A DNA stretch of 64,000 nucleotides from positions 1 through 64,000 of IMG/VR virus record IMGVR_UViG_3300027884_000039; one strand, 5' to 3'. Under the pieces are notes generated by a model. That model ran no database searches, was not told the origin of the DNA, and was given only the letters and a program-made list of their open reading frames with translations. Positions 24,213 to 54,347 of the stretch are shown one piece after another. A program made the position numbers and the translations under genes. The stretch's first letter is position 1, and each line of letters starts with the position of its first letter. The DNA is from a virus (taxonomy: Duplodnaviria; Caudoviricetes).

Positions 24213-24293
24213 ATACGTTTAGTTTATTTACAGCCCCGTTACGAAGACCTCCAAAGGGAAGAGGCGGGGGCTGCTATCATAATTTTCCCGACT

Positions 24294-24686
24294 TTAGACG
24301 GGTAAACGCCGAAGTTGAAAAGACATGTATAGGCATTCACATAATAGAAATACGGCCCAATACGGAGGGGATTCATGAAACACATATTTTCCTATCAGGA
24401 ATAGCGCTACCATAAATCCCAATATCTGTAGCCACATATAAAACTCTCTATATACGCGCTTTCTCTTGGTATCTGTAATCGGTACCTGCGGTTGTTCTTC
24501 CACTGGCTCCCATATAATGAACCGAAAGCCATTGAATGTTCTCTTGGCACCATTGATTAGCACCACTACACATGGATAACCTTCGATGTCCTCATAAATC
24601 TCCGTCACCCCCTCGTGCCCTACTTCAAAATAGTCAATATCGTCGGGGTTTTCATTACTGTTAAAGATTCTAACATTGGTATTCAT
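24294..24686 (-). CDS. Hypothetical membrane protein (2 C-terminal TMs)
   Basis: Hydrophobic C-terminus. Confidence 0.65.
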   Translation of the reverse strand: MNTNVRIFNSNENPDDIDYFEVGHEGVTEIYEDIEGYPCVVVLINGAKRTFNGFRFIIWEPVEEQPQVPITDTKRKRVYREFYMWLQILGFMVALFLIGKYVFHESPPYWAVFLLCECLYMSFQLRRLPV

Positions 24687-48576: not shown

Positions 48577-48823
48577 GGGATTAGTAATGACAAGTATAAC
48601 GGCTATTGTAGGAATCGACCCAGTGACGGGAGATGAAGGCCTTTGGGCTTTTTTAGATGATTTGGGAAAGTGCACGCCGATGGTATGTGCGGATGAAGAG
48701 CGCGTACAAATGATGTTTCATGTGGCTGAACAAATGAGGAAGGCGAGCGGAATCGAATATAAGGTATTACAATTTTCCACGCGTGAGGATATCACAGCAG
48801 CAACTAAAAACAAGTACAGATGA
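48577..48823 (+). CDS. Hypothetical protein
   Basis: ORF from MGLVMTS (DEGL...PMVCAD..R). Confidence 0.65.
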
Positions 48824-49650
48824 GAACACTAGTCATGGGTGATATTCACGGAGCGGCCAAAGCGATTACACAATGCCTAGAAAGGAGTGGCTTCGACCGG
48901 GAGAATGATCGCCTCATCTTCATCGGGGATATGTGCGACGGCTGGCCCTACGTCTATGAAGCTGTGGAAGTGATTTTACAGGTAAAGAATCGGATCGATA
49001 TCCTGGGTAACCACGATGTATGGTTTCGGGATTGGCTCGTCAGCGGTTTCCATGGTGACCCGATTGGCCCCTGGATGCAAGGGGGAAGTGCCACGGCCAG
49101 GTCCTACCTGCGCCAGATCGGGAAGGAAGACATGATTGAAGAGGGATATCATGGCTATCGTACGTCACTTAATCCTGGCGATATACCGGTATCGCATAAG
49201 CAGTTTTTCAATGATATGGTATTATATTATGTAGATGAGCATCACCGGCTCTACGTGCATGGCGGATATACCCGGACTATGTTGATTGAAGATATGAAGC
49301 GGATCAATCCGGTTGAATTGTATTGGAACCGTGAACTATGGAATCAGGCGATGTGTTGTAAGGGAAATGTACGGTTGAAGACCAAGGATAAGTTCAACGA
49401 AATATTCATTGGCCATACGCAAACGACGATCTGGACAACGAAGGAAACCAAGACGCTTAATGGATTCATCTTGCCGGCCGGTGAACCCATCACGAACCCG
49501 ATGTATCATGGTGGCGTATACAACATCGATACTGGCGCTGGCGGCAGGGGTAAGCTCACGATCATGGACGTAGATACCAAGGAGTGTTGGCAGAGCGACC
49601 TGGTGATGGAGCTATATCCCAATGACAAAGGAAGACATGTAAATTATTAA
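48820..49650 (+). CDS. Calcineurin-like metallophosphoesterase (NinI/PPP-like)
   Basis: GDIHG, GDMCDG, GNHD, VHGG, IGHT, IDTG. Confidence 0.95.
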   Translation: MRTLVMGDIHGAAKAITQCLERSGFDRENDRLIFIGDMCDGWPYVYEAVEVILQVKNRIDILGNHDVWFRDWLVSGFHGDPIGPWMQGGSATARSYLRQIGKEDMIEEGYHGYRTSLNPGDIPVSHKQFFNDMVLYYVDEHHRLYVHGGYTRTMLIEDMKRINPVELYWNRELWNQAMCCKGNVRLKTKDKFNEIFIGHTQTTIWTTKETKTLNGFILPAGEPITNPMYHGGVYNIDTGAGGRGKLTIMDVDTKECWQSDLVMELYPNDKGRHVNY

Positions 49651-49660
49651 AAACAATCAT

Positions 49661-49996
49661 ATGGCATTCAAGATCGACAAACATCACCCGCTTCCAGAAG
49701 ATTTCCGCCCATCAAAACCAATGGCGAAATATCCGCTATATAAAATGGTAGATGGAGACTCGTTTTTTGCGCCGGACAAAACAGAACAAAAGTTAAAGTC
49801 ATCTGTTGCGGGAATAAAAAGGCAATGGATCGCTGACGAAATTAAGACCAGGGAGCAAATAGCAGAAGATCGATGGGTTTACCTGGAATGCGTAGAGGAA
49901 TATGAAGGTGAACTGGTTAAAGGTTGCCGCGTTTGGCTAAATCCGCCGACCACTAAAAAAAAAATAAACCAGACGGAAGCGGACCCCGAACCGTAG
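49661..49996 (+). CDS. Hypothetical DNA-binding-like protein (KYPLYKMVDGDSFF)
   Basis: Recurrent phage motif. Confidence 0.65.
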   Translation: MAFKIDKHHPLPEDFRPSKPMAKYPLYKMVDGDSFFAPDKTEQKLKSSVAGIKRQWIADEIKTREQIAEDRWVYLECVEEYEGELVKGCRVWLNPPTTKKKINQTEADPEP

Positions 49997-50045
49997 GCCA
50001 AATGCTAAGGGATCTAAAAGCGCCGCCAGAAAAAAAGGGGAAACA

Positions 50046-50578
50046 ATGAGCGCCGACTACATGAAATTCAAGCAATGGTTCGACCACAAGTTGGAGGTGG
50101 GCGCATATCCTAACCCTGAGATGGCTGAATGGCGAGCGGAGGATTACGCCTATGTAATCAATGTATCTGGCGCCTGGTACGCAGGTGAAGCGCCGATGTA
50201 TCACCAGACCCGCTATTTTTGGTTTCCGATGAGTGAAGGCAAGAAGGACATGGGTATGAATAGTATTTACGGCGCCCTGGTGATCTTATGGGAGGCCGAG
50301 CGTCGTAATGATCGAGTATACTTGCATTGCCATAGTGGGAGTAACCGCAGTTGGACAGTAGCCGCAGCGTATCATTACCTGCGTACCGGCACGCATTGGA
50401 CCGACCGGTTAAGAGCGGGCCACACTTGAATAAACTGCTGGCCAATTGTGATCGGCATTATTTGCCGCATCAATCCGAAATGGAAGCGTGGCTTGCTCAC
50501 TTGCGCAAGGAACTGGAAACTGGTATGACCCCGTCTTTGCTCACGATGAGTAAGATTGAATGCATAAATAATTTTTAA
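50046..50578 (+). pseudogene. Dual-specificity (CX5R) phosphatase split by an apparent 1-nt frameshift near 50395
   Basis: VYLHCHSGSNRS in ORF 50046-50429; a protein-like continuation LDRPVKSGPHLNKLLANC.. lies in the overlapping frame. Confidence 0.7.
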
Positions 50579-51010: not shown

Positions 51011-51362
51011 TTTGCGTATTTCCAAAAACCTTATTATCTTGAACCCACGTTCCAACTCCCCAGGAGTATGTAGTTGGGGGGACTTTTTTTAATTAATGAA
51101 ATCCATTTCGAACAGAAAGCAAGAGTACAGTTACAATCAGCAACCAACAGTTCTTTTTAAGTTTTAGCAAGGACATTTTTTGATTGAGGATGAAGATTGA
51201 CTTTTGGCAGCAGTTTTGAATGAAGAGTAAACTATTAAAAGAGGGGCATTAAGTTCCTACTTGGCAGTAGCCAGGTATAGAAGGTTAGACTTGGTATTTA
51301 ACAGACATTATCGTCCCCTGTTTCTACAGGGGACTCTTTTAACCAAAAAAACTACCCGCTAT

Positions 51363-51878
51363 ATGACCAAAATTAATGGGCATCTTATTCGCGAAGTGCT
51401 CAAAGAAAAAATGTTGGAGTTGACGACCATCAATTCTACTTTTGAAGAAAGCTTATACAAATTTGAAAGTGAAGAAAAGCCATCCCCTGCCGCGTTGATG
51501 GCACGCATCATGGAACTGGAAACTGCGGTTGCCAAATTGCAAACTCTGCAATCGCAATATAACTTAACCGTAATGGTGCAGATTAATGAAGTAGCGATGC
51601 CCCTGGAAGAGGCGATCAAGCTGGTGGGGGGTGCTGGCCGCTCTTCGAAAAGATGGCGCGAAGCCGCCAAAGGAGAAAAGGTTGACCGGTATGAACGTCG
51701 TGCAAATAGGCAGCGAGAGAAAGACAAGGAATATACCGTCCCCACGATCTCAAAAGAAAAGGCGTTGGAATATGCCAAGAAGGCTGAACAATACGCAGGT
51801 AGTCTTCGCAAGGCCATCGCCTTAGGAATTTTAACAGATATTGAATTTGATGATAGTGTGGCGGCGCTCCTGGAGTAA
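51363..51878 (+). CDS. Coiled-coil protein, DIP1984/DUF6847-like
   Basis: ELE..VAKLQ..QSQYN..V....MPLEEAI pattern; start reassigned to ATG 51363 after an A-rich leader. Confidence 0.65.
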   Translation: MTKINGHLIREVLKEKMLELTTINSTFEESLYKFESEEKPSPAALMARIMELETAVAKLQTLQSQYNLTVMVQINEVAMPLEEAIKLVGGAGRSSKRWREAAKGEKVDRYERRANRQREKDKEYTVPTISKEKALEYAKKAEQYAGSLRKAIALGILTDIEFDDSVAALLE

Positions 51879-51895
51879 TCCCGGACACCAGTCAC

Positions 51896-52077
51896 TTGGT
51901 TGGTATGCGAACTCTACAAGCTACTACTTAACAGTAGTGACTTGCCCATCACTGGGATTATGCGCCTTCTTATCTAAATAGCCGTTATGTGTGTCTTGCT
52001 AAAGAACGGTTGATAACAAGCAGTAGTAACCACAAATGGGAGTTGGACGGTACTCGTTGCTATCAAATACCAACCAA
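51896..52077 (+). ncRNA. Structured RNA 1 (~180 nt), abutting tRNA-Met
   Basis: Perfect 11-bp closing stem ttggttggtat/ataccaaccaa plus nested gcga/tcgt, aactc/gagtt, actact/agtagt, ttatc/gataa and gccgtt/aacggt. Confidence 0.75.
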
Positions 52078-52080
52078 CAT

Positions 52081-52151
52081 CGCGAGGTCATCTAACGGTA
52101 GGATACCGGGCTCATAACCCGAGAATTCGGGTTCGATTCCCGACTTCGCAA
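52081..52151 (+). tRNA. tRNA-Met (CAT), initiator type
   Basis: C1:A72 mismatch; GGG/CCC in the anticodon stem; CTCATAA loop; TTCGATT T-loop. Confidence 0.9.
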
Positions 52152-52165
52152 CAAAACTATAACCA

Positions 52166-52954
52166 ATGAAATTAAATGTACTCCTTGCGCGAGCCGAACA
52201 TACTGGTGCGCAGTTCAAAATGATGATTCAAACATATGCACATACTTTCACGCATAAACAGGAGATATTCAGGGGCACTAAGAAGACTTATACGAAGGCA
52301 CCGGGTTCGGATGATTTCCCCAACATGAGCGGCAACGAAAAAGTGCAATCGTCGGTCGATGAATATTTGCAATGGTTTGAAGACACAGCCGACGAGTTTA
52401 TTACTCACCGTTTTAACATTGAGGCTACGAATGCCTCCGGGCCAAAAGCTGAGCTTATCGTCGGTGGGCAGAAATTTGGCAGTTATAGCACCTGCGAGCT
52501 AATGCGGCTCAATGATTTTTTAAATAGTCCTGAATTACTGAAGATGTATTCTATCCTGCCTGTGCGTAGTGATACAGAGAACTGGAAGGAGACTACCGAT
52601 CCGGAAGGCATAAAAAAGAAGTTGTGGGAAACCGACATCAAGAAACTACCCCATAACACGACGATTAAAGGTTGGATTATCCTCCCCGATCCGAATGTGG
52701 AGAAACTGAAGGCCGGTAGTCCGTATACACCTATTAAGGAGTCCAGTGATACGAAAGTGTATTTAGGGGAACAGACCATGCAGAAGTTTAGCGGGGAATG
52801 GAGTCATGCTGATCGGGCCAGTCTGCTGCGCAGGCTCACGATGCTAAAAGCGTCCGTGAAGGAAGCGCTAGTCACAGCCAATGAAACGCCAATGGTGGAA
52901 TCGGAATTAACGGCGAAAAAAATATTCGGGTATTTGCATCGTGGAACAATTTGA
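52166..52954 (+). CDS. DUF7873-like coiled-coil protein
   Basis: MKLNVLLA, FRG..KTY, ATNA...AELIVGG, ELMRL, LPVRS..E.W, KFSGEW...R..LL.RL..LK.SVKEAL..AN, IFGYL. Confidence 0.75.
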   Translation: MKLNVLLARAEHTGAQFKMMIQTYAHTFTHKQEIFRGTKKTYTKAPGSDDFPNMSGNEKVQSSVDEYLQWFEDTADEFITHRFNIEATNASGPKAELIVGGQKFGSYSTCELMRLNDFLNSPELLKMYSILPVRSDTENWKETTDPEGIKKKLWETDIKKLPHNTTIKGWIILPDPNVEKLKAGSPYTPIKESSDTKVYLGEQTMQKFSGEWSHADRASLLRRLTMLKASVKEALVTANETPMVESELTAKKIFGYLHRGTI

Positions 52955-53159
52955 CAAAGCCTTAGCTTTAGCCTTAGCTTAACACGATTCTAGTTAAATC
53001 AACTTTAGCTTCGCGTCAAAAGCCTCAGCTTTGTATGTTAGATCGTGGTGTCAAGCTGACCAGAGCGGAAGGGCACAGGTTCGAATCCTGTCTCGGCCTC
53101 CAGATCATTCGATCCGGAGGCCGAGTAGATACAGCGGCTAGATCATTCTGCATTTTAGC
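52951..53159 (+). ncRNA. Structured RNA 2: (C/T)TTAGC-repeat domain plus a YrlA-like circularly permuted tRNA mimic
   Basis: ttgaca/tgtcaa and cacgat/atcgtg stems; T arm ACAGG-TTCGAAT-CCTGT; acceptor CTCGGCCTCC/GGAGGCCGAG closed by a loop; D-like loop AGCGG; GCGGAA/TTCTGC anticodon-stem equivalent. Confidence 0.8.
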
Positions 53160-53161
53160 CT

Positions 53162-53246
53162 CAGTAAGCTTGAAAACATTGCGAACGTCACGCTGACTTG
53201 AAAATCAGCAGCAGACTGAAAATCTGCCCGTGATTTGGGATCACGT
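53162..53246 (+). repeat. Tandem anticodon-stem-loop-like hairpins
   Basis: GCTGA-CTTGAAAA-TCAGC, GCAGA-CTGAAAA-TCTGC, a weaker CTTGAAAA loop at 53169, and CGTGAT-TTGGG-ATCACG. Confidence 0.65.
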
Positions 53247-53250
53247 TTGG

Positions 53251-53281
53251 GGCCAGGCAGGATACGACCTGGCCCTTTTTT
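53251..53281 (+). terminator. Intrinsic terminator
   Basis: ggccagg/cctggcc stem plus T6. Confidence 0.75.
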
Positions 53282-53300
53282 ACGGTTGAAATGCACAATC

Positions 53301-54252: not shown

Positions 54253-54343
54253 GCCGAAGTGCCGGAATTGGTAGACGGCATCGATGATATCGATGGAGCT
54301 TATACTAGATTAGCTCGTGGGGGCTCGTATCCTCCCTTCGGCT
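54253..54343 (+). pseudogene. tRNA-Leu-like (class II) element with a collapsed anticodon loop
   Basis: GCCGAAG/CTTCGGC acceptor; GGAATTGGTAGAC D arm; long variable arm; ATCGA-TGATA-TCGAT (5-nt loop); T-loop CTCGTAT. Confidence 0.7.
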
Positions 54344-54347
54344 CAAT

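What the first reader, a model, noticed from the sequence alone, without database searches (positions are those of the whole stretch)
51363..53281. Candidate new ribonucleoprotein system: tandem [coiled-coil gene + structured ncRNA] cassettes with tRNA mimicry
Seen: two genes with a shared architecture (helix ending in YN/TN, then a beta-hairpin and L.EAI/ELMRL, and a final LRKAI/LKASVKEAL..AN helix). Each is followed within 20 nt of its stop by a long-stem ncRNA with its own short repeated motif (CAGTAGT in RNA 1, TTAGC in RNA 2). tRNA-fMet separates the cassettes; RNA 2 continues into a permuted tRNA mimic, anticodon-like hairpins and a terminator. Established: YrlA Y RNAs mimic tRNA and partner the Ro60/TROVE protein Rsr. 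No TROVE gene is in this window. Inference: DIP1984/DUF7873-like proteins are the RNA partners, oligomerising on the repeats and presenting tRNA-like decoys or adaptors, for example against anticodon nucleases or for RNA decay.
Basis: partly seen in the sequence, partly recalled or inferred. Interest (0 to 1): 0.92.

Follow-up and report, generated by a model that had tools for sequence, protein, structure and literature searches.

The report
Phage tRNA-mimic RNA beside DUF7873
One of the two proposed gene-plus-RNA cassettes is real: a soil phage encodes a 330-base folded RNA built around a back-to-front tRNA look-alike that travels with an unknown protein (DUF7873) in several unrelated phage groups without Ro60, the usual partner of such RNAs; the other cassette has no support.

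Summary
The window is a complete 79-kb soil phage.

Cassette 2 is confirmed. Gene 52166-52954 is DUF7873. It is followed at once by a ~330-nt RNA (52951-53281) with a UUAGC-repeat 5' domain, a long bulged stem, a YrlA-type permuted tRNA mimic, three small hairpins and a terminator.
- The RNA is conserved with heavy covariation: 47 of 70 pairs show compensatory changes.
- It follows DUF7873 in 28 of the 32 loci reached through the protein, across several divergent phage lineages including a cultured Rhizobium phage.
- A search with an RNA motif alone gave 31 loci; 25 have DUF7873 just upstream.
- In megaphages the two are unlinked but still share a genome.
- TROVE/Ro60 is absent from this and four other phage genomes, four of the five 98-100% complete.
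- Rfam has no family for the RNA (YrlA 19 bits against a threshold of 69). No held paper mentions DUF7873.

Cassette 1 is not supported. Gene 1 is unrelated to DUF7873, and RNA 1 is neither conserved nor better folded than shuffles.

New here: a hairpin loop of the RNA is complementary, with compensatory changes, to the variable-arm loop of a conserved non-decoding tRNA-like gene downstream.

Protein-RNA binding is not shown. This scan found the DUF7873-RNA pair before on other DNA (at least 90 genomes).

The parts
52166..52954 (+). DUF7873 protein gene (262 aa), the conserved genetic partner of the RNA
   Evidence: Pfam PF25283 at 101.5 bits, E 8e-29. There are 94 close homologues and 1808 clusters at E<=1e-3. 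AF2 model pLDDT 86.8; no convincing solved or viral fold match.
52951..53281 (+). Whole structured ncRNA ('RNA 2'), from helix P1 to the terminator
   Evidence: Covariance model R1 matches 52946-53286 at 301 bits. It matches the same position after DUF7873 in all fetched relatives. 90.3% of cells are paired and 47 of 70 pairs show compensatory change; 0 of 500 shuffles reach this.
52951..53019 (+). 5' domain: helix P1 (52951-52955 with 53015-53019) enclosing UUAGC repeats and a central hairpin loop (52989-52994)
   Evidence: P1 is paired in 16 of 16 sequences, with two compensatory pairs. TTAGC is enriched about 20-fold. 4-8 copies are kept in most lineages. The domain is also found in Lak-like megaphages.
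53044..53057 (+). 5' strand of the long bulged stem; pairs with 53167-53183 across a 3-nt A bulge
   Evidence: Helices 4 and 5: 12 of 13 pairs show compensatory change, 85-91% paired.
53065..53151 (+). Circularly permuted tRNA mimic. Closing stem 53065-53070 with 53146-53151; T arm 53075-53091; acceptor 3' strand 53092-53098 followed by UCC(A); loop 53102-53115; acceptor 5' strand 53119-53125; U8-A9; D arm 53128-53144
   Evidence: Rfam YrlA partial match at 19 bits, model positions 23-86. Module table across loci: at least 12 different perfectly paired 7-bp acceptor stems and a loop of 18-131 nt. 11 of 12 T and acceptor pairs are compensatory in 21 sequences.
53167..53183 (+). 3' strand of the long stem, with a conserved bulge
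   Evidence: read.
53192..53245 (+). Three small hairpins. The middle one (53211-53227) has a 5-bp stem and a 7-nt loop of anticodon-loop pattern
   Evidence: Helix 11: 5 of 5 pairs compensatory. Loop letters differ between relatives. Found only in the ~77-kb phage group.
53249..53281 (+). Intrinsic terminator ending the RNA
   Evidence: G+C-rich stem plus a T run. Helix 12 is conserved. In other lineages the RNA instead ends directly before a tRNA.
52081..52152 (+). tRNA-Met(CAU), initiator type, immediately upstream of DUF7873
   Evidence: ARAGORN and Rfam at 53.2 bits. Relatives carry other tRNAs at this place.
54253..54344 (+). Non-decoding class-II tRNA-like gene. Its variable-arm loop (54304-54309) is complementary to the RNA's 5'-domain loop (52989-52994)
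   Evidence: Conserved in relatives. 19 of 25 pairs are compensatory. Loop-loop complementarity holds in 21 of 22 distinct RNA/long-tRNA pairs, in four sequence states.
51363..51878 (+). Gene 1 (171 aa). Not part of the conserved system
   Evidence: No family match. Only 2 homologues. Unrelated to DUF7873. Absent from L001-L006.
51879..52080 (+). 'RNA 1': an unverified spacer with an 11-bp terminal stem (51896-51906 with 52067-52077)
   Evidence: Fold z -1.3. No Rfam match. No similar DNA in any fetched locus.

Best explanation
The stretch 52951-53281 is a trans-acting, phage-encoded structured RNA of a family that Rfam does not hold. Its core is a YrlA-type circularly permuted tRNA mimic. It works together with the DUF7873 protein encoded just upstream, independently of Ro60.

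Shown:
- The RNA exists as a conserved, covarying structure.
- It is genetically coupled to DUF7873 in several divergent phage lineages.
- The pair sits at the head of, or inside, phage tRNA arrays.
- Ro60/TROVE is usually absent.

Inferred:
1. The RNA is transcribed with or right after the DUF7873 message. It is bounded by the terminator here, and by RNase P cutting at the next tRNA in other lineages.
2. The 7-bp acceptor-like stem, followed by U-C-(C/U), carries a dispensable loop of 18-131 nt. RNase P probably cuts it at position +1 and the 3' end is trimmed and CCA-completed, as was shown for Mycobacterium smegmatis YrlA. That would give a two-piece tRNA-like particle.
3. DUF7873 binds the RNA. 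The repeated UUAGC elements of the 5' domain and internal loop are the best candidate sites.
4. A hairpin loop of the 5' domain docks by 6-7 base pairs onto the variable-arm loop of a conserved non-decoding tRNA-like RNA encoded downstream.
5. The particle presents tRNA-like surfaces during infection, as an adaptor or decoy in tRNA processing, repair or defence. The exact role is open.

The upstream gene 1 and 'RNA 1' are a lineage-specific insertion, not a second cassette.
For: Structure:
- RNAalifold on 6 sequences gives 70 pairs, 32 of them compensatory.
- On 16 sequences, 90.3% of cells are paired against 71% in shuffles and 32-43% when the partners are slid. 47 of 70 pairs are compensatory; 0 of 500 shuffles reach this.
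- At least 12 distinct perfectly paired acceptor stems are seen.

Coupling, starting from the protein:
- The tRNA module lies directly after DUF7873 in 28 of the 32 loci reached through the protein.
- These are the window and L001-L006, 17 of the 18 viral loci L021-L038 (R1 matches all 18, but L021 has lost part of the module), the three distant members L039-L041, and Rhizobium phage RHph_TM30, whose protein is 24% identical but scores 261 bits for DUF7873.

Coupling, starting from the RNA:
- A 5'-domain DNA pattern found 31 viral loci. 25 have DUF7873 ending about 50 nt upstream. The 6 without it are 313-553 kb megaphage contigs.
- Both searchable ones carry one DUF7873 gene elsewhere. So does Lak-B5. 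This argues for a trans-acting RNA.

No Ro60:
- TROVE is absent from G000, G001-G003 (98-100% complete) and Lak-B5.

Processing precedent:
- M. smegmatis YrlA with a 7-bp acceptor stem is cut by RNase P and receives CCA in vivo (PMC4201824).

Loop-loop pairing:
- 21 of 22 pairs are complementary, and 3 of 6 positions change on both sides.
Against: - No transcript, processing or binding data exist. No RNA run holds this DNA.
- DUF7873 proteins are near neutral (pI 5.7-7.8). They have no recognisable RNA-binding fold or solved relative.
- Many of the loci belong to a few related phage groups, so adjacency is partly inherited synteny. The independent lineages number roughly five to seven.
- In the Lak phages the gene and the RNA are far apart. 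L021 has a damaged RNA.
- The Rhizobium phage also encodes TROVE 5.7 kb away, so Ro60 use is not excluded there.
- The loop-loop covariation rests on two divergent lineages only, and its core is a palindrome.
- An earlier check within this scan priced the RNP reading at 22 in 100.
Confidence: 0.55

Rival explanations
1. It is an ordinary Y RNA (YrlA class) that serves the host's own Ro60/Rsr, possibly with PNPase. DUF7873 is merely a syntenic neighbour in phage tRNA islands.
For: - Same permuted tRNA topology as YrlA. There are partial Rfam YrlA matches: 19 bits here and 33-37 bits in L039 and the Rhizobium phage, where the RNA after DUF7873 scores like those beside TROVE.
- TROVE occurs in Bacteroides thetaiotaomicron (control), so a Bacteroidota-like host could supply it.
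- RHph_TM30 carries TROVE in the same tRNA island.
Against: - The GNCGAA-type Rsr-binding motif that defines YrlA (PMC4201824) is not conserved on the 5' strand of the stem in these RNAs.
- Scores are far below the Rfam threshold.
- No TROVE in five phage genomes, four of them 98-100% complete.
- Coupling to DUF7873 persists across distant lineages and when the two are unlinked.
Confidence: 0.15
2. It is a cis-acting 3' element of the DUF7873 message or of the tRNA array transcript. It would be a processing or stability module that recruits RNase P, with no function as a free RNA.
For: - It starts at or within about 140 nt of the DUF7873 stop codon in nearly all loci and is followed by tRNAs.
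- tRNA-like elements are known RNase P entry sites (general knowledge).
Against: - In Lak-like megaphages the RNA lies more than 100 kb from DUF7873 yet keeps the full structure.
- A simple cleavage signal would not need the elaborate 5' domain, the long stem or the loop-loop complementarity.
Confidence: 0.12
3. One reading: two tandem protein-plus-RNA cassettes (gene 1 with RNA 1, gene 2 with RNA 2) form one ribonucleoprotein system.
For: - Both genes are followed by non-coding stretches.
- RNA 1 has an 11-bp terminal stem and ends 3 nt before tRNA-fMet.
Against: - Gene 1 is unrelated to DUF7873 and absent from L001-L006.
- Its homologue in L019/L020 has a dissimilar downstream spacer, no tRNA and no R1 match.
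- The RNA 1 fold is at chance level, and it has no relatives.
Confidence: 0.04
4. It is a decayed tRNA gene remnant, that is, pseudogenes inside a phage tRNA array with no function.
For: - It lies in a tRNA island.
- There is a weak Rfam tRNA match at 19.8 bits.
Against: Helices are kept by compensatory changes across lineages that share only 24-58% protein identity.
Confidence: 0.02

Closest known systems
YrlA (Y RNA-like A, Rfam RF02553), partner of bacterial and phage Ro60/Rsr (Chen et al. 2014, PMC4201824; Wang et al. 2018, bioRxiv 10.1101/312249)
   Same: - A circularly permuted tRNA mimic with T arm, loop-closed acceptor stem, U8-A9 and a D arm with GG. The 'anticodon stem' opens into a long stem.
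- A 7-bp acceptor stem, like the M. smegmatis form that RNase P cuts.
- Also phage-encoded.
   Different: - About three times longer (about 330 nt against 80-130 nt).
- It has an extra UUAGC-repeat 5' domain and 3' hairpins.
- There is no conserved Rsr-binding motif.
- It scores 19 bits against a threshold of 69.
- There is no TROVE gene in the genome.
- It is linked to DUF7873 instead.
[quoted passage not shown]
   Same: A tRNA-like RNA predicted to work with a protein other than Ro60.
   Different: The partner here is DUF7873, with no Band-7 match in the flanking genes. No RtcB is present in this phage. The context is a phage tRNA array rather than an RNA-repair operon.
Two-piece (circularly permuted) tmRNA
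   Same: The gene order places the T arm and acceptor 3' strand before the acceptor 5' strand. The intervening segment is of variable length and is probably removed.
   Different: ARAGORN calls no tmRNA. There is no tag reading frame and no G3-U70 alanine identity pair, and pseudoknots were not looked for.
Stable RNAs of unknown function in the phage T4 tRNA cluster (species 1 and 2 RNAs; from my own knowledge)
   Same: Non-tRNA stable RNAs encoded in a phage tRNA cluster and released by tRNA-processing enzymes.
   Different: No sequence or structure comparison was made here, and no protein partner is known for them.

Membership tests
YrlA / bacterial Y RNA (RF02553) | tRNA-like module with T arm, D arm and loop-closed acceptor stem in permuted order | tested here: met
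   Partial cmscan alignment to model positions 23-86. Module table and covariation.
YrlA / bacterial Y RNA (RF02553) | Score at or above the Rfam gathering threshold (69 bits) | tested here: not met
   19 bits in the window. 33-37 bits in L039 and the Rhizobium phage.
YrlA / bacterial Y RNA (RF02553) | Conserved GNCGAA(N0-1)G Rsr-binding motif near the 5' end (PMC4201824) | tested here: not met
   Read. The 5' strand of the stem has no such conserved motif. A CGAA-like run sits on the 3' strand in the window only and is not kept in relatives.
YrlA / bacterial Y RNA (RF02553) | Encoded within about 4 kb of a Ro60/TROVE gene on the same strand | tested here: not met
   No PF05731 match in the complete 79-kb genome, nor in G001-G003 or Lak-B5. 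Met only in Rhizobium phage RHph_TM30, at about 5.7 kb.
YrlA / bacterial Y RNA (RF02553) | Bound by Ro60/Rsr in vivo | not testable with these tools
   Needs immunoprecipitation.
Canonical tRNA | Cloverleaf in normal order with a 7-nt anticodon loop; detected by ARAGORN or Rfam RF00005 at 29 bits or more | tested here: not met
   ARAGORN makes no call at 52955-53281. RF00005 gives 19.8 bits over part of it.
Two-piece tmRNA | tmRNA call with a tag peptide; G3-U70 in the acceptor stem | tested here: not met
   No tmRNA call from ARAGORN. Position 3-70 is C-G here and varies among relatives.
DUF7873 (Pfam PF25283) | Full-length match above 27 bits: gene 2 | tested here: met
   101.5 bits, covering residues 2-258.
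DUF7873 (Pfam PF25283) | Full-length match above 27 bits: gene 1 | tested here: not met
   No match at E<=1. hhalign against the DUF7873 profile gives 0.1%.
Band-7 / b7a-tRNA system | A Band-7 (SPFH) protein encoded beside the tRNA-like RNA | tested here: not met
   No Band-7 match among the five flanking proteins at E<=1. The rest of the genome was not searched for Band-7.

The most novel reading that the evidence does not exclude
This is a three-part, Ro60-independent particle made of three components:
- the DUF7873 protein;
- the ~330-nt tRNA-mimic RNA, cut by RNase P into two pieces with a CCA end;
- a non-decoding class-II tRNA-like RNA that docks on it through a 6-7 bp loop-loop contact.

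Diverse phages would use it, from their tRNA islands, to hijack or shield the host's tRNA machinery, for instance against tRNA-cleaving defences.
Probability: 0.18. Interest if true: 0.85.

Novelty: new variant of a known kind. Interest (0 to 1): 0.68.

Why it matters
Y RNAs and their tRNA-like YrlA cousins are known only as partners of Ro60, and what binds the tRNA-like end is still unknown.

Here the same RNA design appears in an enlarged form, tied to a different and uncharacterised protein family of about 1800 sequence clusters. It sits inside phage tRNA islands and mostly lacks Ro60.

If DUF7873 binds this RNA, three things follow:
- It would define a second kind of tRNA-mimic ribonucleoprotein.
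- It would give a function to a large DUF.
- It would offer a handle on why phages carry tRNA islands.

One carrier, Rhizobium phage RHph_TM30, is cultured, so the idea can be tested directly at the bench.

Tried and rejected
- No DNA match to the region in GenBank phages.
- Single-protein scans of viral contigs found nothing.
- The broad DUF7873 alignment A2 was too diverse for locus scans.
- A scan of bacterial genome contigs with A3 found no relative, so the host and any prophage copies remain unknown.
- Relatives cannot be drawn for a virus record.
- Fold searches gave nothing convincing: Foldseek against PDB and BFVD had no hit at E<=0.001. VIA-align gave a best Z of 6.7 to generic helical proteins. 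The PDB sequence profile search gave nothing meaningful. The atlas library was not installed.
- Sequencing runs: one DNA holder (a soil metagenome, probably the source) and no RNA holder listed.
- The sigma-70 promoter scan was at chance level.
- The Burroughs and Aravind 2016 paper is not held, so it is cited only through Wang et al. 2018.
- A global MAFFT alignment of all lineages aligned only the T and acceptor arms reliably. The outer stems were judged within groups.
- 6-nt complementarity between the 5' domain and ordinary tRNAs is common by chance. The loop-loop claim therefore rests on fixed position and covariation, not on length.
Full report
**Context**

The window is the first 64 kb of a 79,112-bp IMG/VR virus record rated 100% complete. 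The only run that holds this DNA is a soil metagenome. The flagged region reads, on the + strand:
- a 350-nt non-coding leader (51011-51362);
- gene 1 (51363-51878, 171 aa);
- a 202-nt spacer, 'RNA 1' (51879-52080);
- tRNA-Met(CAU) (52081-52152);
- gene 2 (52166-52954, 262 aa);
- a 346-nt non-coding stretch, 'RNA 2', ending at a terminator.

**The observation**

Gene 2 is a clear DUF7873 (PF25283, 101.5 bits). Gene 1 matches no Pfam, PHROG or NCBIfam family convincingly. It shows no similarity to gene 2 by BLASTP or profile-profile comparison (0.1%). The 'shared architecture' is therefore not supported.

The tRNA has initiator marks: a C1/A72 mismatch and three G-C pairs at the foot of the anticodon stem, read.

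RNA 2 folds much better than shuffles (z -3.9). RNA 1 does not (z -1.3). Rfam 15 gives nothing above threshold in either spacer. In RNA 2 it gives a partial YrlA match (19 bits against 69; model positions 23-86) and a partial tRNA match (19.8 bits).

Read directly, 53065-53151 is a circularly permuted tRNA. In order it has:
- a 6-bp closing stem in the place of the anticodon stem;
- a 4-nt variable loop;
- a canonical T arm;
- a 7-bp acceptor stem followed by U-C-C-A;
- a 14-nt closing loop;
- U8-A9;
- a D arm with GG.

TTAGC is about 20-fold enriched in the RNA (5 copies against 0.25 expected).

**RNA 2 is a conserved structured RNA**

DUF7873 has 94 close homologues, many on 75-80 kb contigs. 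Six syntenic loci (L001-L006, 44-58% protein identity) all carry the same RNA directly after the stop codon.
- An alignment of six sequences gives 70 consensus pairs, 32 with compensatory changes.
- A covariance model (R1) then matched every further locus.
- On 16 sequences, 90.3% of cells pair, against 71% in shuffles and 32-43% when partners are slid. 47 of 70 pairs show double-sided change, and 0 of 500 shuffles reach this. That alignment was fitted to the model, which favours it.
- Independently of the model, an anchored extraction shows at least 12 different, perfectly paired 7-bp acceptor stems. 11 of 12 T and acceptor pairs are compensatory in 21 sequences.

The loop that closes the acceptor stem varies from 18 to 131 nt. 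The stem, the following U-C-(C/U) and U8-(A/G)9 are kept.

**Coupling to DUF7873**

Starting from the protein, the tRNA module follows DUF7873 in 28 of 32 loci:
- The window and L001-L006 all have it.
- Of the 18 further viral loci, mostly ~180-kb phages at 39% identity, R1 matches all 18. One of them, L021, has lost part of the module.
- Three distant family members chosen blind from a profile search have it, 3 of 3.
- The cultured Rhizobium phage RHph_TM30 has it. Its protein is only 24% identical but scores 261 bits for DUF7873, and it sits in a tRNA array.

The exceptions are that damaged copy (L021) and the three closely related Prevotella Lak megaphage loci, where a terminator follows the gene.

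Starting from the RNA, a DNA pattern from the 5' domain alone found 31 viral loci:
- All 31 carry the permuted module.
- 25 have DUF7873 ending about 50 nt upstream.
- The 6 without it are 313-553 kb megaphage contigs.
- Both of these that could be searched hold exactly one DUF7873 gene elsewhere. Lak-B5 holds both parts about 160 kb apart.

Co-occurrence without adjacency argues for a trans-acting RNA functionally tied to the protein, rather than a 3' UTR element.

**Ro60**

TROVE is absent from this genome. It is also absent from three other phage genomes that are 98-100% complete and from Lak-B5.

It is present in RHph_TM30, with its own YrlA-like RNAs just upstream. That phage therefore holds both systems side by side. 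There the RNA after DUF7873 scores like the ones beside TROVE (36 against 36-37 bits).

The Rsr-binding motif that defines YrlA (PMC4201824) is not conserved in the DUF7873-linked RNAs.

**The protein**

The AF2 model is confident (pLDDT 86.8): long helices packed against beta-sheets. No solved or viral structure matches convincingly. The proteins are near neutral. Nothing in the protein itself therefore shows RNA binding.

**Cassette 1**

Gene 1 has only two homologues. The one with usable flanks (L019/L020) has a different neighbourhood, a dissimilar downstream spacer, no tRNA and no R1 match. RNA 1 and the leader have no similar DNA in any fetched locus.

In the related phages a tRNA sits directly before DUF7873, so gene 1 plus RNA 1 looks like a lineage-specific insertion.

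**A further component**

A 92-98-nt class-II tRNA-like gene (54253-54344 here) recurs 260-1230 nt downstream of the RNA in the 77-kb, 180-kb and Lak-like groups.
- Its acceptor, T and variable arms covary (19 of 25 pairs).
- Its anticodon arm is a closed hairpin, so it cannot decode.
- The apical loop of its variable arm is complementary over 6-7 nt to the central hairpin loop of the RNA's 5' domain, in 21 of 22 distinct pairs. The exception is an ordinary tRNA-Tyr.

Four sequence states occur:
- the majority, CCUAGA with UCUAGG;
- this window, UCUAGU with ACUAGA;
- L005, with a non-palindromic 7-mer pair;
- the Lak-like group, with 7 bp.

Three of the six positions change on both sides. This suggests a loop-loop contact between the two RNAs. 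The support comes from only two divergent lineages, and 6-nt complementarity as such is common by chance.

**Mechanism and comparison**

The closest known system is YrlA with Ro60. M. smegmatis YrlA, which also has a 7-bp acceptor stem, is cut by RNase P and receives CCA in vivo. The freely varying closing loop here fits the same fate.

Wang et al. note that the factor binding the tRNA-like end of YrlA is unknown. They also note that a tRNA-like RNA beside Band-7 proteins has been predicted. No held paper mentions DUF7873.

I therefore read this as a Ro60-independent variant of the Y-RNA design with DUF7873 as its likely partner. Binding, processing and biological role remain inferences.

**Earlier notes of this scan**

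The scan has reported the same DUF7873-RNA pair on other DNA, in at least 90 genomes. A later internal check kept the observation at 90/100 but priced the RNP reading at 22/100. I tested the pairing independently here. My odds for functional coupling are higher, at 0.55; the odds for direct binding are lower than that.

Noticed in passing
window 54253-54344 (+); also L001 5364-5456, L002 5181-5276, L003 5281-5375, L004 5200-5294, L005 5199-5293, L037 2628-2725: A conserved non-decoding class-II tRNA-like gene. Its acceptor, T and long variable arms covary, but its anticodon arm is a closed hairpin. Its variable-arm loop is complementary to the 5'-domain loop of the DUF7873 RNA.
   Followed up: partly
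window 24215-24309 (-): Type-P3 twister ribozyme match above threshold (RF03154, 53.2 bits against 39.9) with a 29-nt insertion.
   Followed up: no
Rhizobium phage RHph_TM30, MN988521.1 131-142 kb (L010, L013, L018): One tRNA island holds two things. The first is DUF7873 with its tRNA-mimic RNA. The second is a TROVE/Ro60 gene with two or three YrlA-like RNAs upstream, none of them annotated in the record.
   Followed up: partly
window 53192-53245; relatives: Small 3' hairpins with 7-nt loops of anticodon-loop pattern (pyrimidine-U-NNN-purine-A). The middle three letters differ between relatives; two relatives show CAU.
   Followed up: partly
window 51011-51362 (+): A 350-nt non-coding leader before gene 1 with two terminator-like hairpins (about 51051-51090 and 51313-51334). 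No relatives were found.
   Followed up: partly
window 48820-50429 (+); L001-L004: A conserved pair of phosphatase genes lies upstream of the island. Relatives have Metallophos; the window has a weak dual-specificity phosphatase match, 30 bits and below the cut-off.
   Followed up: no
L022-L036, L044-L074 (about 180-kb phages) and L005: The loop closing the acceptor-like stem carries insertions of 50-131 nt that differ between close relatives. This suggests a segment that is removed, or a hot spot for insertions.
   Followed up: partly
L003 5040-5056: An extra T-arm-like hairpin in the 3' tail of one relative's RNA.
   Followed up: no
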